Shown one piece after another: positions 13,718 through 51,372 of a stretch of DNA of 64,000 nucleotides. Origin of the DNA: a virus (Duplodnaviria; Caudoviricetes); IMG/VR virus record IMGVR_UViG_3300005686_000008. One strand, given 5' to 3'. Made by a program: the position numbers and the translations under genes. Within the stretch, counting starts at the first letter, position 1. Every line of letters begins with the position of its first letter. The notes under the pieces are model-generated. The model did no database searches. It saw only the letters and a program-made list of their open reading frames with translations, and was not told the DNA's origin.

Positions 13718-13741
13718 CTTGTGAAATTTACCGACTACAAT
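13714..13741 (+). promoter_or_regulatory. sigma70-like promoter for RNase P RNA
   Basis: TTGACT-16 nt-TACAAT, ending 7 nt before P1. Confidence 0.6.
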
Positions 13742-13747
13742 AGATAA

Positions 13748-13959
13748 GACAACAAGGTTCGATCTATCGCTCTACCCCGTAAGGGATGAGAGGAAGTTCG
13801 CGACTGCACCACCTACCGTTGGAGGCCTAAACAGCCGTTCGGACAACGTAAGCAGCAACTCAAACAGTCTGAGAGCGTCGGTGGCTCTATGAGGACGGGT
13901 TGAGGCCATTAGAGAAATGATAGAATAGAACAGAATCGCGGCTACGGAATCTTGTTGTT
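13748..13959 (+). ncRNA. rnpB: minimal RNase P RNA
   Basis: P1 GACAACAAGGTTC/GAATCTTGTTGTT; CR-I GAGGAAGTTCGCGAC; CR-V AACAGAATCGCGGCTAC (P4-type pairing); P2 TCTATC/GATAGA; T-run after. Confidence 0.8.
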
Positions 13960-17242: not shown

Positions 17243-18502
17243 ATGAACGTCACGGCAGTCATTGGCGCTAACTTCGGAGATGAAGGCAAGGGCCTAATGA
17301 CCGATTATTTCAGCGATAAAAAGACTGTCGTGGTACGACATAATGGCGGAGCGCAGGCTGGACACACTGTTGTTACTCCTGATGGTATTCGCCATGTATT
17401 TAGTCATTTTGGTAGCGGTACTCTTGCGGGTGCCGCTACCTTTCTTGGCCCTCGCTTTATTATCAATCCTCTTCTCTGGAAGAAAGAATTGGGGATTCTA
17501 AAGAAGATGGGTTTTGACCCAAAGGTTTTCTATGCTGGCGGGCTTGTAACCACTCCGTATGACATGCTAATTAACGAAGAGATCGAACGGTCTCGCGGAG
17601 ATGGTCGTCATGGCTCTTGCGGCGTTGGGATTAATGAGACAGTAACCCGTCATTATTCGGAAAAGTTTGCTTTTCCTCGTCTTAGGATTGACTCTAAGTG
17701 TAATATCCTGACTCGCAATAAAATTGTCAATACCGTAAAAAATATTCGCGACGAATATTGCGCTGCTCGCATCAAGGAGATTGGACTTTCTCCCAAGGCT
17801 TCATTCTACAGTATTTTCAATTCCGAAGCCTTACTTGAACGTTATGTTGACAATGTTATTGAGTTTGCCGAGCATTGCATCGAAATCAACACGGATGCCC
17901 AGGGTCTTAGAACTATGGGCATTCATCTTGGCGGCGAAGTCAATAACCTTGTGTTTGAAGGAGCGCAAGGTCTCCTTCTTGATGAAGAGCATTATTTCTT
18001 CCCTCATGTAACTAGAAGCAAGACTGGCCTAAATAACGTTCTTGATATTTGTCGCCAGTTTGAAATTAAAGAGGCTGATGCAACTTATGTTACTAGAGCG
18101 TATATGACCCGTCATGGACAAGGCCCATTTCCTAGCGAAGAAAAAGAACTCAAGTACGAAGATAAGACAAATGTTACTAATGAGTTTCAGGGAAGCCTTC
18201 GTTTTGGCTCTCTTGATGTTGACCTTACAAGCAAGGCTATTAGGAACGATCTTATCCTAGCTAGCGATAGGTTCTTTGAGCATACTGGTTGGGAACCCAT
18301 CAAGGTAAATCCTTCAATAGCTATTACCTGTCTTGATCAGGTCGGAAAAGAGATTTGTGTTTATGATGATGGAGAGAGATTTACTCTCAATGATGTTAAT
18401 GATCTGGTAGATATTTTTGTTGATAAGTGTAATATCCATGATTTTTATACAAGTTATGGCCCAACAAGAGCAAAAATATCTCCTCTATGCGTTGGAAAGT
18501 AA
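17243..18502 (+). CDS. purA: adenylosuccinate synthetase-like protein
   Basis: GANFGDEGKG, GGAQAGHT, FEGAQGLLLD, PHVTRS, RAYMTRHGQGPF. Confidence 0.85.
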   Translation: MNVTAVIGANFGDEGKGLMTDYFSDKKTVVVRHNGGAQAGHTVVTPDGIRHVFSHFGSGTLAGAATFLGPRFIINPLLWKKELGILKKMGFDPKVFYAGGLVTTPYDMLINEEIERSRGDGRHGSCGVGINETVTRHYSEKFAFPRLRIDSKCNILTRNKIVNTVKNIRDEYCAARIKEIGLSPKASFYSIFNSEALLERYVDNVIEFAEHCIEINTDAQGLRTMGIHLGGEVNNLVFEGAQGLLLDEEHYFFPHVTRSKTGLNNVLDICRQFEIKEADATYVTRAYMTRHGQGPFPSEEKELKYEDKTNVTNEFQGSLRFGSLDVDLTSKAIRNDLILASDRFFEHTGWEPIKVNPSIAITCLDQVGKEICVYDDGERFTLNDVNDLVDIFVDKCNIHDFYTSYGPTRAKISPLCVGK

Positions 18503-19336: not shown

Positions 19337-19410
19337 GCCCCCGTAAGCTCAATGGTAGAGTTAGGAGTCTCTAAAACTCTTTGTTGCAGGTTCGAGTCCT
19401 GCCGGGGGCG
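19337..19410 (+). tRNA. amber suppressor tRNA, anticodon CUA
   Basis: Acceptor GCCCCCG/CGGGGGC; D arm GCTC/GAGT; anticodon arm GGAGT-CTCTAAA-ACTCT; T arm GCAGG-TTCGAGT-CCTGC. Confidence 0.85.
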
Positions 19411-38614: not shown

Positions 38615-38687
38615 GGCCCTGTCGTCTAGAGGTTTAGGACGTAAGACTTTCAATCTTTCAACCGGAGTTCGATTCTCCGCAGGGTCA
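38615..38687 (+). tRNA. tRNA-Glu(TTC)
   Basis: GGCCCTG/CAGGGTC; loop CTTTCAA; T loop TTCGATT. Confidence 0.9.
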
Positions 38688-38716
38688 TTTTAGTCAGGTT
38701 TTTTATCAGGAAAAAG

Positions 38717-39214
38717 ATGAGTAAGATTTGTACGAAATGCAAACAACCAGGAACCTTTTGCAAAGATAGCAAAAGCAAAGACGGGTTACAATCTCAATGT
38801 AAGATTTGCAAATCTAAACAGATTGTTTCTTACCTTCAAAAAAATAAGGACAAAAGATCAAAATCTGGTCCAGAAAAAAGATTACGTTACTACTATAAGC
38901 ATAAAATTTCTATGAATATGTCTCGCATAATTCGTAGATCATTGCAAGGCTTGAAGAAAGGAAATCATTGGGAACAGCTTGTAGGGTATTCGGTTGAAGA
39001 GTTAAAGCAACACCTAGAAAAACTCTTCAAAGAAGGAATGAATTGGGAAAATTATGGGAAATGGCATATTGATCATGTTATTCCAGTTTCTTCCTTCAAT
39101 ATTGTTTCTGTAAATTGTGAGGATTTTAAAAAATGTTGGGACATTAAGAATCTACAGCCTTTATGGGCTAAAGATAACTTGAGCAAATCAAATAAAATCG
39201 GCCCTATCTGCTAA
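38717..39214 (+). CDS. HNH homing endonuclease
   Basis: CTKC..CKIC; GMNWENYGKWHIDHVIP..NLQPLWAKDNLSK. Confidence 0.9.
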   Translation: MSKICTKCKQPGTFCKDSKSKDGLQSQCKICKSKQIVSYLQKNKDKRSKSGPEKRLRYYYKHKISMNMSRIIRRSLQGLKKGNHWEQLVGYSVEELKQHLEKLFKEGMNWENYGKWHIDHVIPVSSFNIVSVNCEDFKKCWDIKNLQPLWAKDNLSKSNKIGPIC

Positions 39215-39271
39215 CGGCTAGGCTCCCTGATTCTCAGTCAGGTAATACGAGTTCGAATCTCGTTAGGGTCA
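39200..39271 (+). tRNA. tRNA-Glu(CTC)
   Basis: GGCCCTA/TAGGGTC; CCTGA-TTCTCAG-TCAGG; overlaps HNH stop. Confidence 0.85.
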
Positions 39272-39285
39272 TTGAAAAGTTAAGA

Positions 39286-39357
39286 GGCTCCATCGTCTAA
39301 TTGGCAGGACACCACCCTCTCAAGGTGAAAATATGGGTTCAAATCCCATTGGAGTCA
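39286..39357 (+). tRNA. tRNA-Glu(CTC)
   Basis: GGCTCCA/TGGAGTC; CACC-CTCTCAA-GGTG. Confidence 0.85.
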
Positions 39358-39367
39358 TTATAAATGA

Positions 39368-39439
39368 GGCCCTGTAGCATTATGGGTAGATCGGAAGACT
39401 TTCAATCTTCAGGACCGGGTTCAAGCCCCGGCAGGGTCA
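39368..39439 (+). tRNA. tRNA-Glu(TTC)
   Basis: GGCCCTG/CAGGGTC; GAAGA-CTTTCAA-TCTTC; weak D arm. Confidence 0.8.
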
Positions 39440-39606
39440 TTTATGAAAAAGAACACCACTAAGAAGTATTGGTACTTTACTGAAAGAACCGAATGCGTAC
39501 TTTGCGGATATTGCGATACTGTCAAGTTTAGAAAGACTGGCAAAAAACCAAAAGATCCTAAGAAACGTAGCTCTTATAAGCAAATGGCATGTAGCGAGCA
39601 TTTCTT

Positions 39607-39852
39607 ATGAAAAAAGAACTCCTTAAGTTACTTGGGCAACTAGCAGACGAAGCAAAAAGCTTTGGAGTTTATGAACAATATAGCGAAGCAGGAGAAACCC
39701 TATCCGCCGCTTCTGACCGAGTTTATGAACTAACAGCAGAAATTGTTCAACTTGCTACAGGCAAGAAGCCAACAAAGAAAGAACTTGAAGAGGTTCTTTC
39801 TGTTAGCGTTGGCGAAAAAGGGATGTATGATTGTGAAGATGAAGAAGAGTAA
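39607..39852 (+). CDS. hypothetical protein
   Basis: ORF between tRNAs. Confidence 0.55.
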   Translation: MKKELLKLLGQLADEAKSFGVYEQYSEAGETLSAASDRVYELTAEIVQLATGKKPTKKELEEVLSVSVGEKGMYDCEDEEE

Positions 39853-39879
39853 GTAGTTTTGCCGATATAGCTAGATATT

Positions 39880-39953
39880 ACTCCCGTGGCTCGACTGGAT
39901 TAGGCGGAGGTTTTCTAAACCTCTCAAAGCGGGTTCGAATCCTGCCGGGAGTG
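39880..39953 (+). tRNA. tRNA-Arg(TCT)
   Basis: ACTCCCG/CGGGAGT; GAGGT-TTTCTAA-ACCTC; TTCGAAT. Confidence 0.85.
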
Positions 39954-39957
39954 CTTT

Positions 39958-40170
39958 ATGGGCTTTGAACTAATTCTCTTTCTGAAATTAGCAGCCATAT
40001 TATCATTGTTATTTCTTTTACGACGCGACCGTTACGCCGGTAAATGCAAACTACATCTTTGTGACCTGAAAGCATTTATAGGTCCAGACTGTGGCGGCTA
40101 TACCTATTGCCCTATATGTCACGGTGAAGAAAAGGAGATAACAAATGCCAGAACTAAAGAGAAGACCTGA
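39958..40170 (+). CDS. small membrane-anchored Cys-rich protein
   Basis: Hydrophobic N-terminus, CPIC. Confidence 0.45.
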   Translation: MGFELILFLKLAAILSLLFLLRRDRYAGKCKLHLCDLKAFIGPDCGGYTYCPICHGEEKEITNARTKEKT

Positions 40171-40369
40171 TTTGACAAGCATGGAATTGCAGAAATTCGT
40201 TGGAGAAGACTACCTGCGAATAAAGGCCGAACTTGAAAAGGCAGGCTTGAAAGTATTCTGCGGAGAACACCATGAGAAAAGAGAAATCACTTCTTCGCTT
40301 GACCGTCATGTAGATATCAGATACGATAAGGGTAATCGAGAGATCATACGCATTTGGCGAACAGGCTAG
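40145..40369 (+). CDS. hypothetical protein
   Basis: SD AAGGAG. Confidence 0.55.
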   Translation: MPELKRRPDLTSMELQKFVGEDYLRIKAELEKAGLKVFCGEHHEKREITSSLDRHVDIRYDKGNREIIRIWRTG

Positions 40370-40375
40370 GTCAAA

Positions 40376-40582
40376 ATGGCAAAAAAGAAACCCAAAACCT
40401 CTTGTTGCGAAGCCATGAAAGGGCAGATAGAACGGGAATGCCCGGTTCATCCGAATAAAATTGAATGTCCAGACTTTGTTGTAATCAAAACAAAGTCTGG
40501 TTTTGGTATTCCAATCCGAGATGGTGGTAGAAGCTTTCTTGCAATAAACTTTTGCCCTTGGTGCGGAACTCGTATTACTTAA
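40376..40582 (+). CDS. small zinc-binding protein
   Basis: CC..M..C..H..ECPD..IPIRDGG..INFCPWCG. Confidence 0.65.
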   Translation: MAKKKPKTSCCEAMKGQIERECPVHPNKIECPDFVVIKTKSGFGIPIRDGGRSFLAINFCPWCGTRIT

Positions 40583-40595
40583 TTCGGGTAGATAA

Positions 40596-41942
40596 ATGGA
40601 TACTAAAAGGGTTTACAAAAATCCTAACATGGAAAAAAGGAGGCAAGAATTGCTCAAGAAGGAGCAGGCTTCTTTTTTGTTAATTTCTAACAAGAACAGA
40701 TATGTCCATAAGCCCGAAAGAATCGATCTTGCCTTTGAAAAATCCAAAGAATACATTGCCAATGGCAAAATCCCCCACAGAGAAGATAAACTCGTAAATT
40801 TGTTTATTCCTCTTGGAAAAAGCAATTCTGCTTATCTTCTTCGTCTTCTCAAAACTGTTGAAAAAGAAACAGATTTCTTTGAAGATGAAAAGTATTGCTG
40901 GAAGTTTCTAAATGGATGCATGATAATGGCGTATTGGGGAGACTTCTGGGTAAGAGAGCCGGAAGTTTGGAAAAACAAAACCCATAATGTTGAAAAGCAG
41001 TTTACCAGCTTATTGCATTACCTTTTTGCCAAGTACCCCGTTCCTTCCTTCATGAACGAGGCTTTCTTGTCCAATGATGGAATGGGTTCGAAAAAGCAAG
41101 AATGGTTCTTGCATATGGGTAGCGGTCAAAACATAAGAACAGCGCATGGGTTGCCATACCCGATGACAAGAATGATGGCTCACCTGTTTTCTGAGGCTCC
41201 TTCAGATTTCAAAATCATGGAAGCCTTCAGGTTTGCTCATATCCGCTCTCTTGACGGCTCTATGCCCATAATCAAAGGGTGGCTTGAGTCCCCATTGGCT
41301 ATTGATTTTAGCAACATGGATTTCTGGGATTCCGTTGTTCGCTTTTTTATTGATAACCCGATGCTTGACCCCAGCAAGATTTCTTCCATTATTGATTACA
41401 TTTATAACCAAAAATACGTTGATACTCTTCTCGTAACTCCTGATGGCACAAGAATTAATCGGGGACCAGCGCAGCCTAACTTCACAATGAAGGGAAGGAA
41501 TCCCGAAGCGTTATTGACTCAAGTTGAGAAATGGCATACCCATACAGCTATCAGCAAAAAGAATTCTTTCTTGCAATGGAAGTCTTGCGGCATTCCTGGC
41601 GGTCGCATTGAAGAAGGTTCAGAAAAAGGCAGGAAAGTATACAGCATTGTTGAACTTCTTAACTCTACCGAGTTGAAAGAAGAAGGCAAAACAATGCACC
41701 ACTGCGTTGCAACATACGCATCTTCTTGTTCTTCTGGCAGAAATGCTGTTTACTCCGTTGCTCAGGTTGAAGGAAACGAATGCGGAAGAAAAGCCACAAT
41801 ATCGCTTAACCTTTCTGGCAAGCCAACCTTACAGGAAGCTCGCGGTAAATACAACGAAACACTAAGCGTCCCTGTTGCGAGGATAATTCGAACTTGGGCA
41901 AATTTGAGAAACGTTGCTATTTCAAATTGGGCAAAGTTGTGA
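40596..41942 (+). CDS. PcfJ-like domain protein
   Basis: LFAKYPVP.F; L.EEGKTMHHCVATY; QEARGKYN. Confidence 0.8.
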   Translation: MDTKRVYKNPNMEKRRQELLKKEQASFLLISNKNRYVHKPERIDLAFEKSKEYIANGKIPHREDKLVNLFIPLGKSNSAYLLRLLKTVEKETDFFEDEKYCWKFLNGCMIMAYWGDFWVREPEVWKNKTHNVEKQFTSLLHYLFAKYPVPSFMNEAFLSNDGMGSKKQEWFLHMGSGQNIRTAHGLPYPMTRMMAHLFSEAPSDFKIMEAFRFAHIRSLDGSMPIIKGWLESPLAIDFSNMDFWDSVVRFFIDNPMLDPSKISSIIDYIYNQKYVDTLLVTPDGTRINRGPAQPNFTMKGRNPEALLTQVEKWHTHTAISKKNSFLQWKSCGIPGGRIEEGSEKGRKVYSIVELLNSTELKEEGKTMHHCVATYASSCSSGRNAVYSVAQVEGNECGRKATISLNLSGKPTLQEARGKYNETLSVPVARIIRTWANLRNVAISNWAKL

Positions 41943-42007
41943 TTTGATAGGGTTGCGGCCTCAGACTAAACTTCTTTCGATTTCCGTATAGGTACAGGAC
42001 CGAGCGA

Positions 42008-42652
42008 ATGGGAACAGGCATAGGACAACAGTTTCAAAAGATGCTTAGCCACTTGGTGGCTTTTCATCGAATGGAAAAAGTCCTAGAAACAGGTACGTTT
42101 ACTGGTAATGGTTCTACAAAGTGCTTGTCCGATGCTTTGGAAATGGTAGGCCCTTCTTCTTTGTTATGGACTATTGAAATCAATCATAGATACCTGAAAA
42201 TTGCGCAAGACTTCTGTAAGGGAAAAGCGAACATCGTATACTGTTTAGGTTCTAGCGTTCCCAAGAACCTGGTTCCTACGGTAGAAGATACAAAACTTTG
42301 GATTGAAAGTAACCTTGCAGAGAATCCAAAGATAAGAGTTGACTATAAGGGGTCTCCAGAAAAGTATGTTGAGGAATCTTCTGGTCAGTATGTTATTTAT
42401 GATCTTCTTGGCCTACTAATTCCTAAAATCAAGTATGACCTTATACTCCTTGATTCAGCAGGTCATATAGGTTTTGTTGAGTTTTCCTACCTAATGACCA
42501 TTCTTAACTATCCTACATTTATCGCCTTGGACGATATCAATCATATCAAACACTGGAAAACGTCTCAACAGATTTTTTCAGACAAGAGATTTGAGGTTAT
42601 CTTCAAGACAGATGAAAGATACGGCTCGATGGTTGCCAAGTTTACCCCATGA
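42008..42652 (+). CDS. class I SAM-dependent methyltransferase-like protein
   Basis: VLETGTFTGNGST, TIEIN, LLDSAGH, LDD. Confidence 0.7.
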   Translation: MGTGIGQQFQKMLSHLVAFHRMEKVLETGTFTGNGSTKCLSDALEMVGPSSLLWTIEINHRYLKIAQDFCKGKANIVYCLGSSVPKNLVPTVEDTKLWIESNLAENPKIRVDYKGSPEKYVEESSGQYVIYDLLGLLIPKIKYDLILLDSAGHIGFVEFSYLMTILNYPTFIALDDINHIKHWKTSQQIFSDKRFEVIFKTDERYGSMVAKFTP

Positions 42653-42655
42653 TTT

Positions 42656-42859
42656 ATGCAAATAACTTCGCAAAAACTACTTGTACTTTTGAAAGCTAGC
42701 AAAGAAATGGCTAGACTGTATGAAATAACAGATTCCGATGCCATGCAAAAGGGATTGGAAATCATGGGCGATATAGCCTCTGAATTCTCATCAGATGAAT
42801 TGCAAAAGATGATTGAAGAGGTTGAGAAAGAAATTTGTCCCAGTAGCTCAGTTGAATAG
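42656..42859 (+). CDS. hypothetical protein
   Basis: ORF whose end runs into a tRNA 5' remnant. Confidence 0.45.
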   Translation: MQITSQKLLVLLKASKEMARLYEITDSDAMQKGLEIMGDIASEFSSDELQKMIEEVEKEICPSSSVE

Positions 42860-42861
42860 AG
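42837..42861 (+). pseudogene. 5' remnant of split tRNA-Arg
   Basis: GTCCCAG-TA-GCTC-AGTTGAATA-GAG; acceptor strand pairs with CTGGGAC at 43382-43388. Confidence 0.75.
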
Positions 42862-42874
42862 AGTGTATAAAAAT

Positions 42875-42947
42875 GTCCTCGTAGCTCAATTGGAAGAGCA
42901 ACAGCCTTCTAAGCTGTAGGTTACTGGTTCGAGTCCAGTCGGGGATG
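42875..42947 (+). tRNA. tRNA-Arg(TCT)
   Basis: GTCCTCG/CGGGGAT; ACAGC-CTTCTAA-GCTGT; TTCGAGT. Confidence 0.9.
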
Positions 42948-43006
42948 CTTGATTAGAAGAAGGATTTCTAAACAGTTCTTTGTATTTCACCTATAGGAGG
43001 TGAAAT

Positions 43007-43354
43007 ATGAGGAAATGTCAAAAATGTCAGGTAGAAAAAAATGAAGAAGAGTTTTATGCGACAACTCGCAAAAACAGCTATTGTAAAGTCTGTTTTAATG
43101 AGTATTGCATAAACAGATGGAAGCAAAGAAAAATTGATGCAGTTAACTACAAAGGTGGCAAATGCGTAATATGTGGATATAAAAAGAATCATTCCGCATT
43201 AGATTTCCACCACAGAAATCCTAAAGAAAAAGATGTTGATTGGAGTCAATTAAGACTTAGAAGTTGGAAAAAGATTATTGAGGAACTCAATAAATGCGAT
43301 CTAGTTTGTAGAAACTGTCATGCGGAAATCCATAATCCGCAGTCAAGCTTCTAA
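43007..43354 (+). CDS. HNH homing endonuclease
   Basis: YKGGKCVICGY..ALDFHH..KCDLVCRNCHAEIH; RBS in hairpin. Confidence 0.9.
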   Translation: MRKCQKCQVEKNEEEFYATTRKNSYCKVCFNEYCINRWKQRKIDAVNYKGGKCVICGYKKNHSALDFHHRNPKEKDVDWSQLRLRSWKKIIEELNKCDLVCRNCHAEIHNPQSSF

Positions 43355-43389
43355 GCGGCAGGTCACAGGTTTGAGTCCTGTCTGGGACG
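43347..43389 (+). pseudogene. 3' remnant of split tRNA-Arg(TCT)
   Basis: CTTCTAA loop, GCGGC, AGGTC, ACAGG-TTTGAGT-CCTGT, CTGGGAC-G. Confidence 0.75.
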
Positions 43390-43565
43390 TTTATGAAAGT
43401 TATTAGAAGCGAACATGGAATTGAATTAATTCCAGAAACGGAGTTCGAAAAAGAGTGCTTGAGGCTAATTGCCAATAGAGCAGTAACTCCTGTTTGGACA
43501 GACTCTTGGAACCGAAGCGGCAATCTCAAGATTGAAGCTAAAGAACCAGATTGGGGAACGTAGTC

Positions 43566-44039
43566 ATGTCAGAGATGCACGACTGTCCTCAATGTAATAA
43601 AAGGCATGTTTCATGGGACGCTCGATGCGGCTCATGGTTATGCCTAACAATTGGATGCGGATATTCTACGAAAGTTTATCCACGATTGAAGAAAGAGAAC
43701 GGAACAATGAACGGTCCCGAATCCCTTTATTCTCTCCGGTTTCCTAACGGATTCAAGATTGATGACGAATCAGCCCTGTCTGAAATGTATGTTAAGGACA
43801 GGATTGACTGCGAAGCGACTGGAAACATCAAGTTTCTCATTTCAAAATGGCAGTTTTTATGTCCTTCGATTCAAGGTAAAACCAATATCAACAACGATGA
43901 CGTTCTTGTTCCTCGCGAACTTTTGCATCTTGCTATATTCGCTCGTAAGTTTGGGGTTAGCGAAGGATTGATTTTCTTCCAACTCATTAATAGCGGTAAA
44001 TTAACTGTTGATCAAGATGGATTTGTAAGAAGCAAGTAA
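43566..44039 (+). CDS. hypothetical protein with N-terminal zinc ribbon
   Basis: CPQC..CLTIGC. Confidence 0.55.
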   Translation: MSEMHDCPQCNKRHVSWDARCGSWLCLTIGCGYSTKVYPRLKKENGTMNGPESLYSLRFPNGFKIDDESALSEMYVKDRIDCEATGNIKFLISKWQFLCPSIQGKTNINNDDVLVPRELLHLAIFARKFGVSEGLIFFQLINSGKLTVDQDGFVRSK

Positions 44040-44231
44040 GGATTTAGACATGAAATACCTTTGTTTTATCTTTGGAGTTCTTTTGATTGCCGGCGCTTTG
44101 GCCGCTTGGGTTTTCTATGGCAAGCCCGGTGAGGATGGGGGAGGCCATGCCTTTGTTGGCATTGCTGGCGCTGTTATTGCAGGTTGGGGCGTAAGTATTC
44201 ATGAACGGGAACTGGAAAAGAAATAAATCAA

Positions 44232-44305
44232 GCTCTCGTAGCTCAGTTGGATAGAGCAGCGGTTTCCTAAACCGCAGGTCGTGCGTTCGAGTCGCGCCGG
44301 GAGCG
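44232..44305 (+). tRNA. tRNA-Arg(CCT)
   Basis: GCTCTCG/CGGGAGC; GCGGT-TTCCTAA-ACCGC. Confidence 0.9.
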
Positions 44306-44324: not shown

Positions 44325-44618
44325 ATGTTCAACCCTGTCGAGTGGATGAAAGAGCAGTATGCCGAATCATTTTGCCTTAGTATGGTAACTCTCATACTGT
44401 CAGTCCCTCTTTCTGTATTCGCATTGGGGCTTGAAATTGGCTGGTTGTTTTATGTTTCTGTTTTCGTAACACTCTTTGCTATTGTCTTGTTTATAACTAC
44501 GCTGGTCCTTTTTGTTCTCGAAGAAAAGCGTAAGGAAACGGAAGCAGCAGAAAGAAAGAAGAAATACTATGGAAATGCCGTTGACAAATCTGGAGAGAGT
44601 TCGTCAAGGAAGGCTTGA
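44325..44618 (+). CDS. membrane protein
   Basis: SD AGGAG; two TM segments. Confidence 0.6.
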   Translation: MFNPVEWMKEQYAESFCLSMVTLILSVPLSVFALGLEIGWLFYVSVFVTLFAIVLFITTLVLFVLEEKRKETEAAERKKKYYGNAVDKSGESSSRKA

Positions 44619-46050
44619 GAAGATTCGAGAACTTGGTATTGACCCATACGGAATTCCAGTTTTTGAAATAAAGCCTATTTATGAGGTTGTTGATTCGTTT
44701 ATAGGTAATGAATCTACAGCTTCTCCAGAGTATCTTGCAAGAGAATGGAGAACGCAAGGTCGCATTGTCTTACTAAGAGACAATGGCGGTCTTATTTGGC
44801 TTAAGATTCGAGATGATTCCAGAGAGGTTCAAATTGCCATTAGCAAGAAGGATGTAGTTGGAGAGAAGACTTTTCAACTTGCCAAGCTTCTTGACCTTGG
44901 AGATATTGTATTTGTTGTAGGCACGTTGCGCAGGACAAAGACTGGCGAAATTACTATATGGGCGACGGATGTTGGATTGGCCTGTAAGAGCCTCGCCCAT
45001 CCTCCTGATAAGGTTGCAGGACTTCAGGATGTTGAATTGAGATATCGTAAGCGGTACATTGATATGGCCTTTAATGAAGGCTTTATCAAGACTCTTAAGA
45101 TTCGTTCAAGAATCATTCAACTTTTACGTTCAGAGTTTGAAGATAGGCGTTATATCGAAGTTGAAACGCCGATGCTTCATCCTATTGCTGGCGGCGCTGC
45201 GGCAAGACCATTCAAGACCCATCTAAACGCCCTTGATATTCCTCTTTATATGAGAGTTGCTCCAGAACTCTATCTCAAGAGGCTCATTGTTGGAGGAATG
45301 AGAAGAGTCTTTGAAATCAATCGCAACTTCCGTAATGAGGGGATTGATGCAACTCACAATCCTGAGTTTACCGCCCTTGAAGCGTATGCTATCAATGAAG
45401 ATGTATTCTCATTGATGAATCTGGTTGAAAGCATTATTAAGGACGTAGCCCGTAACCTTTTCAGGAGTCCCCCTTCAAGCAATCCGCTCCCGGATCCTGT
45501 TCATGTTTACAATTACGATGGATACGAAATTGACTTGCGTTCTCCGTTCAAGATTGTCAGCTATAGCGAACTCTATCATAGAGCAACAGGTCTTACTTTG
45601 ACCGAGGATACGGACTTTGTAAAGGCCAATGAAATATTTGAAGAGAAGGCAGAAGTCCTTATTGACCCAAGAATTCCTACGTTTGTTCATGGATATCCTG
45701 CCGCTATTTCTCCTCTTACAAAGGTTGCTTCCAAGCAGTCAATTATTGCGCAAAGAGCAGATTTGTTTATTGGCGGCATGGAAATTGGAACTATCTATAC
45801 TGAGCAAAACGATCCGAATGTTCAATATAACGTGTTTACCAATCAACTTGCCGGGGACGATGACGAAGAATCTACCCATAGAACCTTAGATGAAGATTTC
45901 ATTGAAGCCTTGAAGGTTGGTATGCCTCCTACCGGAGGACTTGGAATCGGCATTGATAGGTTAGTAATGCTTTTGACTGGAAACACAAGTGTTAGAGACG
46001 TTATCGCATTCCCGTTTATGAGGCCGCTTCACTCAGCAGTGGCCGACTAA
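44569..46050 (+). CDS. lysS: lysyl-tRNA synthetase, class II
   Basis: OB-fold GRIV..LDLGDIV; RYRKRYID, EVETPML, GGAAARPF, APELYLKRL, FRNEGID.THNPEFT, GMPPTGGLGIGIDRL. Confidence 0.95.
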   Translation: MEMPLTNLERVRQGRLEKIRELGIDPYGIPVFEIKPIYEVVDSFIGNESTASPEYLAREWRTQGRIVLLRDNGGLIWLKIRDDSREVQIAISKKDVVGEKTFQLAKLLDLGDIVFVVGTLRRTKTGEITIWATDVGLACKSLAHPPDKVAGLQDVELRYRKRYIDMAFNEGFIKTLKIRSRIIQLLRSEFEDRRYIEVETPMLHPIAGGAAARPFKTHLNALDIPLYMRVAPELYLKRLIVGGMRRVFEINRNFRNEGIDATHNPEFTALEAYAINEDVFSLMNLVESIIKDVARNLFRSPPSSNPLPDPVHVYNYDGYEIDLRSPFKIVSYSELYHRATGLTLTEDTDFVKANEIFEEKAEVLIDPRIPTFVHGYPAAISPLTKVASKQSIIAQRADLFIGGMEIGTIYTEQNDPNVQYNVFTNQLAGDDDEESTHRTLDEDFIEALKVGMPPTGGLGIGIDRLVMLLTGNTSVRDVIAFPFMRPLHSAVAD

Positions 46051-47371: not shown

Positions 47372-47988
47372 TTATTGGCGAATCCCCATATAGTGTTGTT
47401 GCAACGAAATGGCATACATGGTTCTGCGAAGGACCGTACCAGAGCGGTAAGCAATGGAAAACCGAAAAAGAAGCCATTGATGAATGCAATCTTCTTAATT
47501 CTGTATATAACACTGGAGCAGCTAAAACGCATTCTGTTTCAGATGTTATGGTTTGTAAACTTCCTTATCAGGATGATTTCTTTGTTCATGCCCAAATGGA
47601 CGGGAAAGATGTATGGCTTTGTCAAGATGGAACTTGGACATTCAATGAAACTGATGAAAAAGTTTCTCTTCCGGGAAATACTGGCTTGAAGATGCTGGTT
47701 GAAAATAAAGACCTTGCCAAACTTGAAAGTGACATTGCCAACGCCTATCGTTGTGCTAAAGAGTACGTTCCAGATTACCCTTGGGACGATTCTCGCCAAA
47801 CTGCCTCCCAAGCGGTTTGGGCTTGCGGAGAATCGTATAGCGGAGTATGTAAGGCTTGCGAGGATTGGCAAAGACTTTTCAAGCATTTTGCCCCTGATGC
47901 TTATTCTAGGCTTTTGAGTACAAGTACCAGAGAGTATATTGAACTAGTCAAAAAACTAGAAGAGCAGGAAAAAAAGAATGAATCGTAA
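47368..47988 (+). CDS. hypothetical protein
   Basis: ATGA overlap. Confidence 0.6.
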   Translation: MIIGESPYSVVATKWHTWFCEGPYQSGKQWKTEKEAIDECNLLNSVYNTGAAKTHSVSDVMVCKLPYQDDFFVHAQMDGKDVWLCQDGTWTFNETDEKVSLPGNTGLKMLVENKDLAKLESDIANAYRCAKEYVPDYPWDDSRQTASQAVWACGESYSGVCKACEDWQRLFKHFAPDAYSRLLSTSTREYIELVKKLEEQEKKNES

Positions 47989-48913
47989 AGGCCTATGTTG
48001 TATTCATGTCGGATTACAAAAGTCTGGCTCCAAGTTTCAAACGATGACTTGGAGCAGATTTTCTCAAATAGGCCGAACCGCTGCCCTACCTATTTTGGCG
48101 GAAAGATATAAAAACAACCTTTCTATTATTTTGAAGATTCTTCATTGTTGCGCGCAAAAGGGCTGGTGCTATAGAGTTAGCAGCGATATCTTTCCCCTCA
48201 TGACTCATCCAGAGGCTAATCTAAAATGGGAAGATATTCCCAATCATGATGAACTAACCCGTCTTTTTCTTTCTTGCGCAAAAGAAATCTATACCAATAA
48301 TATTCGAGTTTCATGTCATCCAGACCAATTCAATGTTCTCGCTAGTCTAAATGACAAGTCTGTTGCTCAAACTATTACCGAACTTAATCATCATGGCTGG
48401 TTCATGGAACGCTTAGATAGCACAGGCTATCATTCTCCCATCAACATCCACCTTAATTGTTCTAGCGGAGACCCCAAAGAAATAGCCAAAAGGTTTAAGG
48501 ATGGTTTAGATAGGCTTGATAAGCATACTAAGCCTCGGTTGGTTATTGAAAACGAAGATAAAGGCATTTGGAATGTTCGCAATCTTATTGAACATATCCA
48601 CGAACTCACTGGAGTTCCCATTACATTTGATTATTTACATCATAAATGTAATGATGGCGGTTTGACAGAAAAAGAGGCTTTTGAGCTTTGTATTCAGACA
48701 TGGGGTAAGACTAGACCATTGTTTCATTTCTCAGAATCTTTACCTGGTCAGAAGAATCTTAGGAAGCACGCTGACTATCCGACCTATGTACCTGATACTT
48801 ATGGGTATGAAATTGACCTAGATTACGAGTTCAAGCAAAAAGATTTAGCTCTCGAAAGAGCAGAAAAAATAGCCCAAAACCTTGCAGGTGAAGAGTTGCA
48901 GGCTAAACTTTAG
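47978..48913 (+). CDS. uvsE: UV DNA damage endonuclease
   Basis: YRVSSDIFP, HPDQFNVL, INIH, LVIENED, FDYLHH, HFSES, HAD, EFKQKD. Confidence 0.92.
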   Translation: MNRKGLCCIHVGLQKSGSKFQTMTWSRFSQIGRTAALPILAERYKNNLSIILKILHCCAQKGWCYRVSSDIFPLMTHPEANLKWEDIPNHDELTRLFLSCAKEIYTNNIRVSCHPDQFNVLASLNDKSVAQTITELNHHGWFMERLDSTGYHSPINIHLNCSSGDPKEIAKRFKDGLDRLDKHTKPRLVIENEDKGIWNVRNLIEHIHELTGVPITFDYLHHKCNDGGLTEKEAFELCIQTWGKTRPLFHFSESLPGQKNLRKHADYPTYVPDTYGYEIDLDYEFKQKDLALERAEKIAQNLAGEELQAKL

Positions 48914-49005
48914 ACGGAAAAATGGTGAGCAGATTCAAGTTCTACAGAAAACTAGCCGATAGAGACTACGAGGACGCCTACCAACGCACTCAAGACAATC
49001 AAAAA

Positions 49006-49092
49006 GGCTTTGGCCGAAGGAATGACGGTTAACAACCCCACCACTTAGGAGTTCTGCCGTAAGGCTTCCGTTGTCCACCCCTTGCCTCAGCC
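49006..49092 (+). ncRNA. Y RNA-like element 1
   Basis: GGCT..GGC-CG-AAG / CTT-GCC..AGCC bulged terminal helix; second stem GGAATGACGG/CCGTTGTCC; GGTTAAC. Confidence 0.7.
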
Positions 49093-49133
49093 ATTTCTTG
49101 CTGATTCAGGTCTAACGATCTGGAAGAAGCATT

Positions 49134-49264
49134 AGTTCCGAGTCGAAGCATTTTAGGTTAACAACGTTTGGGTTTCAGTAGCTTTCTATGACGCAGATAA
49201 AGAAGGTAATCCCGAAAGGGCTTCCCAATACTCTGCACTCCTAAAGGCATCCCTTACTCGGACT
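49134..49264 (+). ncRNA. Y RNA-like element 2
   Basis: TCCGAGT-CG-AAG / CTT-ACTCGGA; second stem GCATTTTAGG/CCTAAAGGC; GGTTAAC. Confidence 0.75.
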
Positions 49265-49308
49265 TTGAATAGCAAGGCTCTAAAAGAGAAATCTAATAGA
49301 GCTTATTT

Positions 49309-49386
49309 GAGAAGATAGAAGTCGAAGGTAGAAGGTTAACATATTGCAAAAAAGACCTTTTGCCACCAACTTACTTCTAGCTTTTC
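49309..49386 (+). ncRNA. Y RNA-like element 3
   Basis: TAGAAGT-CG-AAG / CTT-ACTTCTA; second stem GGTAGAAGGTT/GACCTTTTGCC; GGTTAAC. Confidence 0.75.
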
Positions 49387-49402
49387 TTGACAATTGAATA
49401 AT

Positions 49403-49525
49403 GCGCCTGTAGTGTAATGGCTAGCACGCTAAAACATCCTGACCAATTACTTACCGAACAGGTCGAACGGAAAGGGTTATCTCTATATCCCAGAGGTAGT
49501 TTGGGTTCGAATCCCAACGGGCGCT
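49403..49525 (+). ncRNA. tRNA-like Y RNA (YrlA-like, circularly permuted)
   Basis: Acceptor GCGCCTG/CGGGCGC, D arm GTG..TAATGGCTAG..CAC, T arm TTGGG-TTCGAAT-CCCAA; anticodon arm replaced by CTTACC-GAACA-GGTCGAACGG module. Confidence 0.75.
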
Positions 49526-49550
49526 TTGTAAACGAATGTTGGAAGTTACA

Positions 49551-49585
49551 TACTTCAGTAATAGTTACTGAAGTCGAATAAGGAG
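49551..49585 (+). promoter_or_regulatory. Ro-site-like hairpin abutting the ro60 Shine-Dalgarno
   Basis: ACTTCAGTAA-TAG-TTACTGAAGT-CGAA-T-AAGGAG. Confidence 0.5.
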
Positions 49586-49592
49586 ATTGCAA

Positions 49593-51293
49593 ATGGCAAA
49601 CTATGGAAAGTTGACTGGTTCTCTTAGCTCCAAGACCCCAAAGGCTACCCCTCAGACGGTACAGACTCCTGGAACCGTTCAGAATAACGCCGGTGGTTTC
49701 GTTTTTGAGATTAATAAGTGGGACCGCCTGGACCGCTTCCTGATCCTCGGTACGGATGGGGCAACCTATTACTGTACTGAGCGCAAGATGACTCTTGATA
49801 ATGCTAAGAACGTTATTGAGTGCATTAAGGAGGATGGTCTGCGCACCGTTCAGCGCATCGTTGAAATCAGCGATGCTGGTCGCGCTCCAAAGAACGACCC
49901 TGCCTTGTTTGCTCTTGCGCTTTGCGCAGGTCATGATTCGGCTACGCCCGAGACTCGTCGCGCTGCTCTTGCTGCGCTTCCGAAGGTTGCTCGTATTGGA
50001 ACTCACTTGTTCCAGTTCGCGCACTTCGTTGACGGTTTCCGTGGTTGGGGTTCTGGTCTTCGTAACGCTATCGCCAACTGGTATAACGGTATGAAGCCTG
50101 ACCGCTTGGCTCTTCAGGTTGTCAAGTATCCTCAGCGCACCGCAGAAGAGGGTAACTCCAAGTCTTCCTGGTCGCATGATGACTTGCTTCGCAAGTGTCA
50201 CGCAAGGGGCGACGAGCTTCACAATATGATCTATGCTTATGTAACTCGCGAAGGCAAGTTGCCTGACCCTGTACCTGAGCAGCTTGTTATCCTTGAGGGT
50301 GCAAGCAAGATCAAGGGTCAGACTAACCCGAGCATCGTTGCTTCTCTTGTCGAGGAGTACCAGCTTCCTCACGAGCTGATCCCGAAGGAAGTCGCTAACG
50401 ATCCGAAGGTATGGCAGGCTCTCTTGCCTCACATGCCTATCACCGCTACTATGCGCGTTCTCAACCGCCTTACTTCGTATGGAGTTCTTAAGCCGTTCTC
50501 CAGCGAACTCAAGATGGTTACTGAGCGCTTGACCAACGTTGAGCAGATCAAGAAGGGTCGCGTTCACCCGTTGGCCGTTCTTGGCGCTCTCAAGACTTAC
50601 TCCGCAGGTCGCGGAGTTCGCGGAAGCCTTACCTGGTCGCCAATCGCCCAGGTATCTGACGCTCTCAACGAGATGCTTTACCTTGCGTTCGACGCAATCG
50701 AGCCAACTGGTAAGAACATCCTTTTGGGTCTTGACGTTTCTGGTTCTATGACCGGCGGTAGCGTTGGTGGACTTGACTTCGTTACGCCTCGCGAGGCATC
50801 TGCTGTTATGGCGATGGTTACGGCGCGCAGCGAAAAGAACTGGCACGTTATCGGCTTCACTTCTGGCGGATATTCCTACGAGAAGGGAACTTCTGGTAGG
50901 TATGGTTTCGGCGGGAACTACGGAGTTACCGAAATCAATATCAGCCCGAAGGACAAGCTTGATACGGTTTGCAACAAGATTGAGAAGCTTCCAATGGGAG
51001 GTACTGATTGTGCCCTGCCGATCATGTATGCTCTTGAGAAGGGTCTTAATGTTGACGCCTTCGTTACCTACACGGATAACGAGACTTGGGCTGGTTCTAT
51101 CAAGCCTCACGAGGCTTTGAAGATGTATCGCAATCAGCGTAACCCGCAGGCGAAGGTGATTGCGGTTGGTATGACGGCTACGGAGTACAGCATCGTTGAC
51201 GAGAACGACGCAGGTTCTATGAACTTCGTTGGATTCGACACGAGCGCCCCGGCTCTCATGGCGGACTTCATCCGTAAGGATTTGCGCCGCTAA
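49593..51293 (+). CDS. rsr: Ro60/TROVE-domain RNA-binding protein (Rsr)
   Basis: NNAGGFVF..RFLILGT.G.TYY, RIGTHLF.F..RGWG, LLRKCH, MPITATMRVL, vWA LDVSGSM, GGTDCALP, TDNETW, GFD; SD AAGGAG. Confidence 0.95.
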   Translation: MANYGKLTGSLSSKTPKATPQTVQTPGTVQNNAGGFVFEINKWDRLDRFLILGTDGATYYCTERKMTLDNAKNVIECIKEDGLRTVQRIVEISDAGRAPKNDPALFALALCAGHDSATPETRRAALAALPKVARIGTHLFQFAHFVDGFRGWGSGLRNAIANWYNGMKPDRLALQVVKYPQRTAEEGNSKSSWSHDDLLRKCHARGDELHNMIYAYVTREGKLPDPVPEQLVILEGASKIKGQTNPSIVASLVEEYQLPHELIPKEVANDPKVWQALLPHMPITATMRVLNRLTSYGVLKPFSSELKMVTERLTNVEQIKKGRVHPLAVLGALKTYSAGRGVRGSLTWSPIAQVSDALNEMLYLAFDAIEPTGKNILLGLDVSGSMTGGSVGGLDFVTPREASAVMAMVTARSEKNWHVIGFTSGGYSYEKGTSGRYGFGGNYGVTEINISPKDKLDTVCNKIEKLPMGGTDCALPIMYALEKGLNVDAFVTYTDNETWAGSIKPHEALKMYRNQRNPQAKVIAVGMTATEYSIVDENDAGSMNFVGFDTSAPALMADFIRKDLRR

Positions 51294-51319
51294 CCGTTCT
51301 ACAGGCTAAACTTTCACAT

Positions 51320-51350
51320 GCCCCTCGGTGGACTCCATCGAGGGGCTTTT
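51320..51350 (+). terminator. intrinsic terminator
   Basis: GCCCCTCGGTGG-ACT-CCATCGAGGGGC-TTTT. Confidence 0.8.
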
Positions 51351-51372
51351 CATTTAAGCCGACAATTTTGCA

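What the first reader, a model, noticed from the sequence alone, without database searches (positions are those of the whole stretch)
48914..51350. Phage Ro60 locus with a tandem array of four structurally homologous Y RNAs
Seen: the ~680-nt gap before ro60 has four copies of one architecture with divergent sequence but compensatory pairing. Each has a 5' strand NNN-CG-AA(C)G opposite a CTT-NNN 3' strand (GGCCGAAG/CTTGCC, AGTCGAAG/CTTACT twice, GGTCGAACG/CTTACC), a second stem and a GGTTA(A/T)C motif. The distal domains differ (about 80, 90, 120 and 130 nt overall) and small hairpins separate the units. Established: bacterial Y RNAs bind Ro60/Rsr through a GNCGAAN(0-1)G bulged helix, lie next to rsr, and tether Ro to effectors such as PNPase. 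Inference: one phage Ro60 may be paired with a repertoire of interchangeable RNA adaptors. That would be a modular RNP system, possibly for RNA repair or as decoys against host tRNA-targeting defences.
Basis: partly seen in the sequence, partly recalled or inferred. Interest (0 to 1): 0.9.

Follow-up and report, generated by a model that had tools for sequence, protein, structure and literature searches.

The report
Phage Ro60 gene with Y-RNA array
A large phage carries a gene for the ring-shaped RNA-binding protein Ro60 preceded by four different small RNA genes that share one Ro60 "handle"; one is built like a tRNA, and a fifth copy of the handle sits on the Ro60 gene's own ribosome-binding site, which extends a known bacterial and phage system and is not a new kind of system.

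Summary
The 679-nt gap upstream of a full-length Ro60 gene (49593-51293) holds four co-oriented units sharing helix, CGAA, about 6 nt, then GGTTA(A/T)C: 4 motif hits where 0.11 are expected (P about 6e-6). Relatives support all four with compensatory base changes. A covariance model trained only on units from 13 unrelated Ro60 loci ranks U3, U1 and U2 first, second and fourth in the whole window.

- Unit sizes are 87, 126, 64 and 123 nt.
- The AAG/CTT pairing is not conserved. CGAA lies in an internal loop.
- Spacer hairpin 2 is not conserved; spacer 1 was not compared.
- Unit 4 is a tRNA-shaped RNA (acceptor, D and T arms) whose anticodon arm carries the handle closed by a loop. This is the reverse circular permutation of the published YrlA.

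I also found a fifth handle, in hairpin form, abutting the ro60 Shine-Dalgarno. It covaries in relatives and recurs in five Ro60 lineages, which suggests autoregulation.

Arrays of about 2-8 such units are the rule in the phage and metagenome Ro60 loci I examined. Y RNAs next to phage Ro60 are already published (Chen 2014; phage phiLo 2025). This scan had already noted the tRNA-shaped form and the leader hairpin on other DNA. Transcription, processing and Ro60 binding remain untested. Verdict: real, a new variant of a known kind.

The parts
48934..48984 (+). Conserved three-block element upstream of unit 1: TTCAAG (48934-48939), GCCGATA (48955-48961), CCTACCAA (48977-48984). Candidate promoter or start of the array transcript.
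   Evidence: The three blocks are invariant, with similar spacing, in the window, L001, L003, L013 and L114. It is not a sigma-70 consensus match, so the function is inferred only.
49006..49092 (+). Unit 1, a simple Y-like RNA of 87 nt. It has a two-part terminal helix, a CGAA loop, helix 2 ending in the GG of GGTTAAC, and a distal GNRA-capped hairpin.
   Evidence: Motif. Alignment with L001, L003 and L114: 96% of cells paired, 6 pairs changed on both sides, 0/500 shuffles, slid controls 37-55%. Independent model R2: rank 2 in the window, 15.7 bits, E 0.27, boundaries 49007-49091.
49099..49131 (+). Spacer hairpin 1.
   Evidence: Single-sequence fold only (z -2.6). No comparison with relatives was made.
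49137..49262 (+). Unit 2, a Y-like RNA of 126 nt with a 7-bp terminal helix, a CGAA loop, helix 2, and a branched distal domain holding a CCC-GAAA-GGG hairpin.
   Evidence: Motif. Homologue in viral contig L162: 7 of 33 pairs changed on both sides, including 4 of 7 in the terminal helix. R2: rank 4 in the window, 14.3 bits, E 0.55, boundaries 49136-49263.
49275..49304 (+). Spacer hairpin 2, probably not a conserved element.
   Evidence: Fold z -2.3. In the relative seen in runs X9/X10, two of three stem changes break pairs.
49316..49379 (+). Unit 3, a minimal Y-like RNA of 64 nt with a 7-bp terminal helix, a CGAA / ACCAACTT internal loop, an 11-bp helix 2 and an A-rich 16-nt loop.
   Evidence: Alignment with L001, L003, L114 and L013: 93% paired, 13 of 20 pairs changed on both sides, 0/500 shuffles, slid controls 39-52%. 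R2: best hit of the whole window, 32.3 bits, E 3.8e-5.
49403..49525 (+). Unit 4, a tRNA-topology Y-like RNA of 123 nt. It has a 7-bp acceptor stem formed by the two ends, a D arm and a T arm. The anticodon arm is replaced by a long arm carrying the handle as a hairpin (CTTACC-gaaca-GGT-CGAA-C-GG ... GGGTTATC).
   Evidence: Rfam tRNA 39.6 bits with a 66-nt insert. Twelve such units in five Ro60 lineages: 99% of acceptor/D/T cells paired and all 7 acceptor pairs covary. ARAGORN with introns gives inconsistent anticodons and intron sites. C49407T with G49520A in a relative is compensatory in the acceptor stem.
49549..49585 (+). H5, a fifth handle in hairpin form on the ro60 ribosome-binding site: ACATA, a 10-bp helix (49552-49561 / 49565-49574), CGAA (49575-49578), then AAGGAG (49580-49585). 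The ATG is at 49593.
   Evidence: Fold z -3.4. Alignment with L001, L003, L013 and L114: 95% paired, 4 of 8 pairs changed on both sides, slid controls 20-42%. G49558A with C49568T is compensatory. The same kind of hairpin lies within 40 nt of the ro60 start in 6 of 21 loci against 0.017 expected per leader, P about 1e-6.
49593..51293 (+). ro60 (rsr) gene, 566 aa, with TROVE and vWA domains and a DxSxS MIDAS motif.
   Evidence: Pfam PF05731 and PF25045. PHROG 850. PDB 2NVO E 8.5e-108, 9NEN and 1YVP. MIDAS (L-D-V-S-G-S-M) read.
51320..51356 (+). Intrinsic terminator closing the array-ro60 unit.
   Evidence: 12-bp stem with 9 G-C pairs followed by a T run. No terminator-like site on the + strand between 48914 and 51293.

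Best explanation
The segment 48934-51356 is most likely one transcription unit of a large tailed phage. It encodes four different Y-RNA-like partner RNAs followed by their protein, Ro60.

Each RNA carries the same handle: a helix, then CGAA in an internal loop opposite an A/C-rich strand ending in (C/A)TT, then a second helix closed by the GG of GGTTAHC. By homology with YrlA/YrlB and with the phiLo Yrl RNAs, this handle is the Ro60-binding site. The distal modules differ: GNRA-capped hairpins in U1 and U2, an A-rich loop in U3, and a complete tRNA body in U4. One Ro60 ring could therefore be loaded with four alternative adaptors.

U4 has the 5'/3' ends of a real tRNA. Host RNase P and 3'-end tRNA-processing enzymes are expected to cut it out, which would also separate the upstream Y RNAs from the ro60 mRNA.

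The ro60 mRNA begins with a fifth, loop-closed copy of the handle two nucleotides from the Shine-Dalgarno. Free Ro60 bound there would block the ribosome, and Y RNAs would compete for it. This would be autogenous control by target mimicry.

Shown: the sequence features, their conservation and covariation, and their linkage to Ro60. Inferred: transcription as one unit, processing, Ro60 binding, repression, and what the distal modules recruit.
For: - Ro60 is intact and orthologous.
- There are four motif copies where 0.11 are expected.
- Over 21 Ro60 loci the motif occurs at 1.96/kb beside the gene on its strand against 0.19/kb elsewhere. 51 of 69 of the nearby copies have a closing helix of 7 bp or more, against 14 of 66 elsewhere.
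- Covariation: U3 13/20 pairs, U1 6/20, U2 7/33 from a single homologue, U4 body 12/16 with 99% pairing, H5 4/8.
- Model R2, built from 18 units of 13 other loci, ranks U3, U1 and U2 as hits 1, 2 and 4 of the window with full-length alignments. In 606 kb it hits only Ro60-linked loci, always on the ro60 strand, and none of 54 control viral loci.
- The handle matches published GNCGAAN0-1G and the following YUAY (PMC4201824). Phage phiLo Ro60 binds two upstream CGAA RNAs (PMC12135203).
- M. smegmatis YrlA is an RNase P substrate.
- There are no terminators inside the array and a strong one after ro60.
- H5 is kept in the window although the ORF that contains it in relatives is deleted here.
- Weak hint of expression: a 415-nt contig from a metatranscriptome library, about 90% identical, covers 49251-49651.
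Against: - There are no transcript ends, no binding data and no host.
- The RNA-library contig may be contaminating DNA, and a contig cannot show a single transcript.
- U1 and U2 are individually non-significant with R2 (E 0.27 and 0.55). A model built from U3-type sequences alone does not find U1, U2 or U4.
- Single-sequence folding energies are unremarkable.
- The handle helix of U4 is only 3 bp in the window.
- No recognisable sigma-70 promoter was found.
- The Rfam Y-RNA and YrlA models do not hit.
- The U2 homologue in L162 has no Ro60 gene within 14.7 kb.
- The leader hairpin is absent from about two thirds of the Ro60 lineages I examined.
Confidence: 0.72

Rival explanations
1. The repeats are not separate stable RNAs. 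They are cis-acting Ro60 operator sites in one long, structured ro60 mRNA leader, acting as a multi-site titration or feedback device.
For: All units are co-oriented with ro60, with no internal promoter or terminator consensus. One handle copy lies directly on the RBS. The RNA-library contig is contiguous from U2 to ro60.
Against: Homologous elements in Salmonella, M. smegmatis, D. radiodurans and phage phiLo are discrete RNAs that bind Ro60. U4 has the full substrate features of tRNA-processing enzymes. In L004, L017 and L026 the units lie downstream of ro60. The U2 homologue in L162 is not next to a Ro60 gene.
Confidence: 0.12
2. The RNAs, U4 especially, act mainly without Ro60. They could be tRNA mimics or decoys for host tRNA-targeting nucleases or tRNA-binding enzymes, or partners of another protein.
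For: U4 is a near-perfect tRNA body. The phage invests in translation and RNA repair: 8 tRNAs, a class II aaRS and an RNA ligase. A U2 homologue occurs without an adjacent Ro60 gene.
Against: The one feature shared by all units is the Ro60-type handle, and its genomic linkage to Ro60 is strong. U4 has no anticodon stem-loop, which is the usual target of anticodon nucleases.
Confidence: 0.1
3. Unit 4 is an ordinary tRNA gene interrupted by an intron or insertion, and the other units are unrelated hairpins.
For: It reaches the Rfam tRNA gathering score. ARAGORN with the intron option calls it tRNA-Arg(CCT) with a 33-nt intron.
Against: Across 12 homologues ARAGORN assigns different amino acids and non-canonical, shifting intron positions. 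There is no conserved 5-bp anticodon stem with a 7-nt loop. The 'intron' always contains the CG(A/G)A handle followed by GGTTATC. Known bacterial tRNA introns are long group I introns (general knowledge).
Confidence: 0.03
4. Chance similarity or decaying repeats with no function.
For: Single-sequence fold z-scores are modest. The loose 'helix + CGR' pattern alone is common.
Against: Poisson P of 6e-6 for the motif cluster, compensatory changes in every unit, and recovery by an independent model.
Confidence: 0.01

Closest known systems
YrlA (Y RNA-like A; Rfam RF02553; Salmonella, M. smegmatis, mycobacteriophages; Chen et al. 2014, PMC4201824; Wang et al. 2018, 10.1101/312249)
   Same: It is encoded beside and on the same strand as Ro60/Rsr. 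It has the GNCGAAN0-1G motif followed by a conserved YUAY (here GGTTA[T/A]C). It has a tRNA-like module with tRNA-type D and T arms and a 7-bp acceptor-like stem.
   Different: YrlA is a circularly permuted tRNA: its ends lie in the Ro-binding stem, the order is T arm, closed acceptor loop, D arm. Unit 4 has the normal tRNA order with open acceptor ends, and its Ro-type handle is closed by a loop. RF02553 does not hit the window, though it finds the Dandelion phage YrlA at 36 bits. I found no description of this layout in the papers searched.
YrlB of S. Typhimurium / M. smegmatis, and Yrl1/Yrl2 of Thermus phage phiLo (PMC12135203)
   Same: These are short RNAs upstream of ro60 with a terminal stem, an internal loop holding CGAA and a second stem, without a full tRNA module. 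phiLo Ro60 binds both Yrl RNAs and, with host PNPase, forms a RYPER-like ternary complex.
   Different: Here there are three such units plus a tRNA-shaped one. Their sequences are unrelated outside the handle, and binding is untested.
D. radiodurans Yrn1/Yrn2 and the four small RNAs upstream of rsr; metazoan Y RNAs (2-4 per species) and nematode sbRNAs
   Same: Several Y RNAs serve one Ro60, with a bulged or looped helix as the Ro site and a variable distal module that tethers effectors such as PNPase. One Ro60-adjacent unit in L020 even reaches the gathering score of the nematode sbRNA family RF01656.
   Different: In Yrn1 and the animal RNAs both strands of the Ro helix are conserved. Here only the 5'-strand motif and a short A/C-rich opposite strand are conserved.
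Autogenous translational repression by target mimicry (E. coli ribosomal proteins S8, L1, S15, L20; T4 RegA and gp32)
   Same: A copy of the protein's RNA-binding site sits on its own mRNA next to the Shine-Dalgarno (H5).
   Different: The resemblance is purely computational. I found no report of Ro60/Rsr autoregulation in the library.

Membership tests
Ro60 / Rsr (TROVE) protein | TROVE HEAT-repeat ring plus a C-terminal vWA domain with MIDAS, and full-length similarity to solved Ro60/Rsr. | tested here: met
   Pfam PF05731 (E 7.7e-30) and PF25045 (E 1.7e-52). 2NVO E 8.5e-108 over residues 15-563. DVSGS read.
Bacterial/phage Y RNA, YrlA type (Chen 2014; RF02553) | Encoded within 4 kb of a Ro60 orthologue and on the same strand. 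| tested here: met
   All four units lie 68-587 nt upstream of ro60 on the + strand.
Bacterial/phage Y RNA, YrlA type (Chen 2014; RF02553) | GNCGAAN0-1G motif near the 5' end, followed by conserved YUAY. | tested here: met
   GCCGAAG, GTCGAAG (twice) and GTCGAACG, each followed by GGTTA(A/T)C. In U4 the motif is internal because of the permutation.
Bacterial/phage Y RNA, YrlA type (Chen 2014; RF02553) | tRNA-like domain in the order T arm, closed acceptor-like stem-loop, D arm, enclosed by the Ro-binding stem. | tested here: not met
   U1-U3 have no T or D arm. U4 has the order D arm, handle arm, T arm with open acceptor ends. There is no RF02553 hit at E up to 10, whereas the Dandelion phage YrlA scores 36 bits.
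Bacterial/phage Y RNA (any type) | A stable transcript that is bound by Ro60. | not testable with these tools
   The only relevant datum is a metatranscriptome-library contig of a relative over 49251-49651. It cannot show ends, strand or binding.
Simple Ro60-adjacent Y-like RNA (YrlB / phiLo Yrl-like), as modelled by R2 | Terminal helix, CG(A/G)A internal loop and helix 2 ending in GGTTAYC, detected by a covariance model trained on other lineages. | tested here: met
   U3 scores 32.3 bits, E 3.8e-5. U1 (E 0.27) and U2 (E 0.55) are individually inconclusive but rank 2 and 4 of 128 kb with full-length alignments. The model hits no control locus.
tRNA | Cloverleaf with a 7-bp acceptor stem, D arm (A14, G18G19) and T arm (GTTCRANYC). 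| tested here: met
   Applies to U4 only: Rfam RF00005 39.6 bits; 12 homologues with 99% pairing.
tRNA | 5-bp anticodon stem with a 7-nt loop presenting an anticodon. | tested here: not met
   A 66-nt insert replaces it. The forced intron models disagree among homologues.
Autogenous translational operator (target mimicry) | A copy of the protein's RNA target adjacent to or overlapping its own RBS, conserved. | tested here: met
   H5: helix plus CGAA, 2 nt from AAGGAG. It covaries and recurs in 6 of 21 leaders, P about 1e-6.
Autogenous translational operator (target mimicry) | The protein binds the leader and represses its own translation. | not testable with these tools

The most novel reading that the evidence does not exclude
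Phage Ro60 systems are self-regulating, modular RNP kits. A tRNA-punctuated operon delivers several adaptor RNAs. One of them is a genuine tRNA-ended Y RNA that receives CCA, and perhaps an amino acid, and so couples the Ro60 ring to tRNA-handling or translation machinery. Ro60 measures the free adaptor pool through a Y-RNA mimic on its own ribosome-binding site.
Probability: 0.25. Interest if true: 0.75.

Novelty: new variant of a known kind. Interest (0 to 1): 0.55.

Why it matters
Ro60/Y-RNA particles are conserved from bacteria to humans, where they are a major lupus and Sjogren autoantigen, yet the function of the Y RNAs' variable modules is still poorly understood.

This locus, together with the two dozen related loci compared here, shows three things. 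Phages routinely pair one Ro60 with a set of about 2-8 different Y-like RNAs. One recurrent member is a tRNA with normal ends whose anticodon arm is the Ro site, the form Wang et al. 2018 speculated YrlA might be processed into. Several lineages place a copy of the handle on the ro60 ribosome-binding site.

All three points give simple, testable hypotheses on adaptor choice, processing by tRNA enzymes and feedback control, in a compact 2.4-kb cassette that can be expressed in a laboratory host.

Tried and rejected
- Rfam at gathering and at E up to 10 gave no Y_RNA or YrlA hit in the gap, only tRNA for U4.
- Whole-gap and single-unit folding energies are not distinctive, with z from -0.5 to -2.7.
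- A loose 'helix + CGR + (A/T)T' scan is non-specific: 145 hits against about 160 in shuffles.
- Model R1, built from U3-type homologues only, did not recover U1, U2 or U4. U1 scored 11 bits, E 5.
- MAFFT alignments of the tRNA-shaped units were too poor in the middle to define the long arm. Several pairings for GGGTTAT remain possible.
- RNAalifold on A10 predicted only helix 1. Helix 2 is offset by one column in the MAFFT alignment.
- A sigma-70 promoter scan found nothing on the + strand.
- No whole genome is held for the window.
- A pattern scan of viral contigs for GTCGAAG-N5-8-GGTTAAC returned mostly single chance hits. Only L114 was a relative.
- Reads: all runs are contigs, so no ends, strand or level can be read. 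Parts of the stretch without cover in the RNA run say nothing.
- The supplement of Chen 2014 and the 2020 Annual Review were not available.
- The intron-tRNA reading of U4 was rejected.
- I considered whether U4's acceptor stem and discriminator point to a specific aminoacyl-tRNA synthetase. Neither is conserved among homologues, so I make no claim.
Full report
**What is there**

The ORF 49593-51293 (+) encodes a 566-aa protein with Pfam TROVE and Ro60-type vWA domains and PHROG 850 'RNA-binding protein'. It has full-length similarity to D. radiodurans Rsr (2NVO, E 8.5e-108) and to vertebrate Ro60 (9NEN, 1YVP). A DxSxS MIDAS motif is readable.

The window is phage DNA. It holds tail-fibre proteins, an RNA ligase, a PurZ-like enzyme, topoisomerase II, eight tRNAs and a class II aminoacyl-tRNA synthetase. 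Its closest relatives are IMG/VR viral contigs of 100-258 kb and a 464-kb metagenome contig. The window itself is held in bioreactor-sludge metagenome runs.

**The observation**

The 679-nt gap between uvdE (47978-48913) and ro60 contains four copies of GNCGAA(N)G followed after 6-7 nt by GGTTA(A/T)C. The strict pattern occurs 21 times elsewhere in the window on both strands. Four copies in 679 nt on one strand therefore compare with 0.11 expected (Poisson P 6e-6).

The units are:
- U1, 49006-49092
- U2, 49137-49262
- U3, 49316-49379
- U4, 49403-49525

No credible ORF covers them.

**Comparative support, unit by unit**

Related Ro60 loci were fetched from IMG/VR, JGI metagenomes and GenBank phages.

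- U3 aligns with units in L001, L003, L114 and L013. 93% of cells pair, 13 of 20 pairs change on both sides, 0/500 shuffles reach this, and slid controls give 39-52%.
- U1 aligns with L001, L003 and L114. 96% of cells pair and 6 pairs change on both sides. Its distal hairpin keeps a GNRA loop (GTAA, GCAA, GAAA, GCAA).
- U2 has one homologue, in L162. 7 of 33 pairs change on both sides, four of them in the terminal helix.

These alignments define the shared architecture:
- Helix 1 is formed by the two ends.
- CGAA lies in an internal loop opposite an 8-nt A/C-rich strand ending in (C/A)TT.
- Helix 2 opens with the G that follows CGAA and closes with the GG(TT) of GGTTAAC.
- A variable distal part follows.

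**Independent model**

I aligned 18 simple units from 13 other Ro60 loci, none from the window's clade, and built covariance model R2.

- Scanning the whole window on both strands without filters, the top hits were U3 (32.3 bits, E 3.8e-5), U1 (15.7 bits, E 0.27), a small hairpin at 13738-13769 on the minus strand, and U2 (14.3 bits, E 0.55). Each unit was aligned end to end at the boundaries derived above.
- Over 606 kb, including 54 unrelated viral loci, all 13 hits at E up to 1 lay in Ro60-linked loci on the ro60 strand.
- Across 21 Ro60 loci the strict motif is ten times denser beside the gene (1.96 against 0.19 per kb) and far more often closed by a helix of 7 bp or more (51/69 against 14/66).

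**Unit 4**

U4 matches the Rfam tRNA model at 39.6 bits with a 66-nt insert in the anticodon arm. It has a 7-bp acceptor stem made by its two ends, T8 A9, a D arm with A14 and G18G19, and a GGGTTCGAATCCC T arm.

Between the D and T arms lies a long arm. In it, the strand that is 3' in ordinary units (…ACTT-ACC) comes first, then a GAACA loop, then GGT-CGAA-C-GG … GGGTTATC.

Published YrlA is the opposite permutation: its ends are in the Ro stem and its acceptor stem is closed.

Twelve such tRNA-topology units occur in five Ro60 lineages: the window clade, L004/L008, L005/L019/L023, L020 and L025. In L004 there are three in tandem, and in L020 and L025 they sit alongside canonical YrlA-order units. 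Their acceptor, D and T stems pair in 99% of cells, and all seven acceptor pairs covary.

ARAGORN forced to allow introns assigns six different amino acids and shifting, non-canonical intron sites. An intron-containing tRNA is therefore rejected.

The exact pairing of the long arm, including what GGGTTAT pairs with, remains unresolved. One compensatory change between the window and L003 (C-G to T-A) supports TCCT/AGGG.

**A fifth handle on the ribosome-binding site**

Directly upstream of ro60 lies ACATA, a 10-bp hairpin, CGAA, T, then AAGGAG (49549-49585; fold z -3.4).

- The same element is present in L001, L003, L013 and L114 with 4 of 8 helix pairs changed on both sides. A relative seen in runs X9/X10 adds a G-C to A-T exchange.
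- In those relatives the hairpin lies inside the 3' end of a roughly 185-aa ORF with a weak, sub-threshold ParB-like hit. The window lacks that ORF: it retains only the ATGTTG start fused to the hairpin. The hairpin is therefore maintained for its own sake.
- Loop-closed handles of the lineage's own flavour also lie within 40 nt of the ro60 start in L004, L011 (Streptomyces phage Wofford), L025 and L028. That is 6 of 21 leaders against 0.017 expected per leader, binomial P about 1e-6.

I found no paper on Ro60/Rsr autoregulation.

**Context and expression**

- A three-block element (TTCAAG … GCCGATA … CCTACCAA) precedes unit 1 in all five members of the clade.
- No terminator-like site lies within the array, and a 12-bp terminator follows ro60.
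- A 415-nt contig from a wastewater metatranscriptome library, about 90% identical, covers 49251-49651, running from the 3' end of U2 to the ro60 start. The same variant is present in a DNA run of that study, so this is only a weak hint of expression.
- Changes in that relative preserve pairing in U3 helix 2 and in the U4 acceptor stem, but break spacer hairpin 2.

**How common, and what is known**

By eye and by script, multi-unit arrays are the rule:
- L007, four units, one of them a canonical YrlA
- L006, four units
- L005, five upstream units alternating simple and tRNA-shaped, plus one downstream
- L004, two upstream and five downstream
- Mycobacterium phage Dandelion, three
- L025, at least six

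Array content varies even among close relatives: window U1-U2-U3-U4, L001 three units, L013 one. L003 and L114 carry an extra structured RNA of about 300 nt.

From the literature:
- Chen et al. 2014 reported YrlA-like RNAs near Ro60 in 254 bacteria and 22 phages, at least two Y RNAs in each species they examined experimentally, and four small RNAs upstream of D. radiodurans rsr.
- The phiLo study showed a phage Ro60 binding two upstream CGAA RNAs and assembling with host PNPase.
- Wang et al. 2018 speculated that some YrlA RNAs might be processed to look more like canonical tRNAs.

None of the papers I could search describes a genomically encoded tRNA-topology Y RNA or a handle on the ro60 RBS.

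This scan's own earlier notes report both features on other genomes, and the tRNA-shaped unit on this window. I reached both features before reading those notes, and I tested them here independently.

**Verdict**

The array is real and is best read as four Ro60 partner RNAs plus an operator-like fifth handle. It is a new variant of a known kind, not a new system. Binding, processing and function are all inferred.

Noticed in passing
window 19337-19410 (+): A tRNA with anticodon CTA, an amber suppressor that ARAGORN labels tRNA-Pyl (Rfam tRNA 54.8 bits). The phage may read TAG in some genes or interfere with host termination.
   Followed up: no
window 17243-18502 (+): This ORF matches PHROG 1211 (E 2.9e-59), which carries the PurZ-type adenylosuccinate-synthetase annotation. 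That hints at a 2-aminoadenine (Z-base) genome.
   Followed up: no
window 44512-46050 (+) and 38615-44305: The phage encodes a class II aminoacyl-tRNA synthetase of the Asp/Lys/Asn type with an OB anticodon-binding domain. It lies next to a cluster of four tRNA-Glu and three tRNA-Arg genes.
   Followed up: no
window 3147-4199 (+) and 47978-48913 (+): An RNA ligase (PHROG 24030, E 1.6e-125, with an HNH-like N-terminus) is present. A UvdE UV-damage endonuclease lies immediately upstream of the Y-RNA array. Together these suggest a damage or RNA-repair theme around Ro60.
   Followed up: partly
L003 1895-2215 and L114 7015-7335: In two relatives the array contains an extra conserved RNA of about 300 nt. 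18 of 70 predicted pairs are compensatory between just two sequences, and there is no Rfam match. It is absent from the window.
   Followed up: partly
L001 2432-2988, L003, L013, L114 (between the last unit and ro60): Relatives carry an ORF of about 185 aa with a DG(H/L)HR motif and a weak, sub-threshold ParB-like nuclease hit (PF08857, E 0.005). The window has lost it, keeping only the start codon region fused to the H5 hairpin.
   Followed up: partly
L162 3905-4045 (-): A clear homologue of unit 2 sits in a 17-kb viral contig beside a tRNA gene and an HNH-like ORF. No Ro60 gene was found in the 14.7 kb held, so a Y-like RNA may be unlinked from Ro60, or Ro60 may lie elsewhere in that phage.
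   Followed up: partly
L020 1179-1247: The simple unit just upstream of this metagenomic ro60 reaches the gathering score of Rfam RF01656, the nematode sbRNAs ceN72-3/ceN74-2 (42.8 bits). From memory, these are regarded as nematode Y-RNA homologues.
   Followed up: no
window 13738-13769 (-): A 32-nt hairpin with a helix-CGAA ... CTT-helix layout is picked up by both handle models (12-14 bits, E 0.5-3). It lies on the strand opposite to all the large ORFs. It is probably chance or a + strand terminator-like hairpin.
   Followed up: no
window 48934-48984 (+): The blocks TTCAAG, GCCGATA and CCTACCAA, at similar spacing, are invariant upstream of the first Y unit in five related phages. This may be a phage-specific promoter. 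It is not a sigma-70 consensus.
   Followed up: partly
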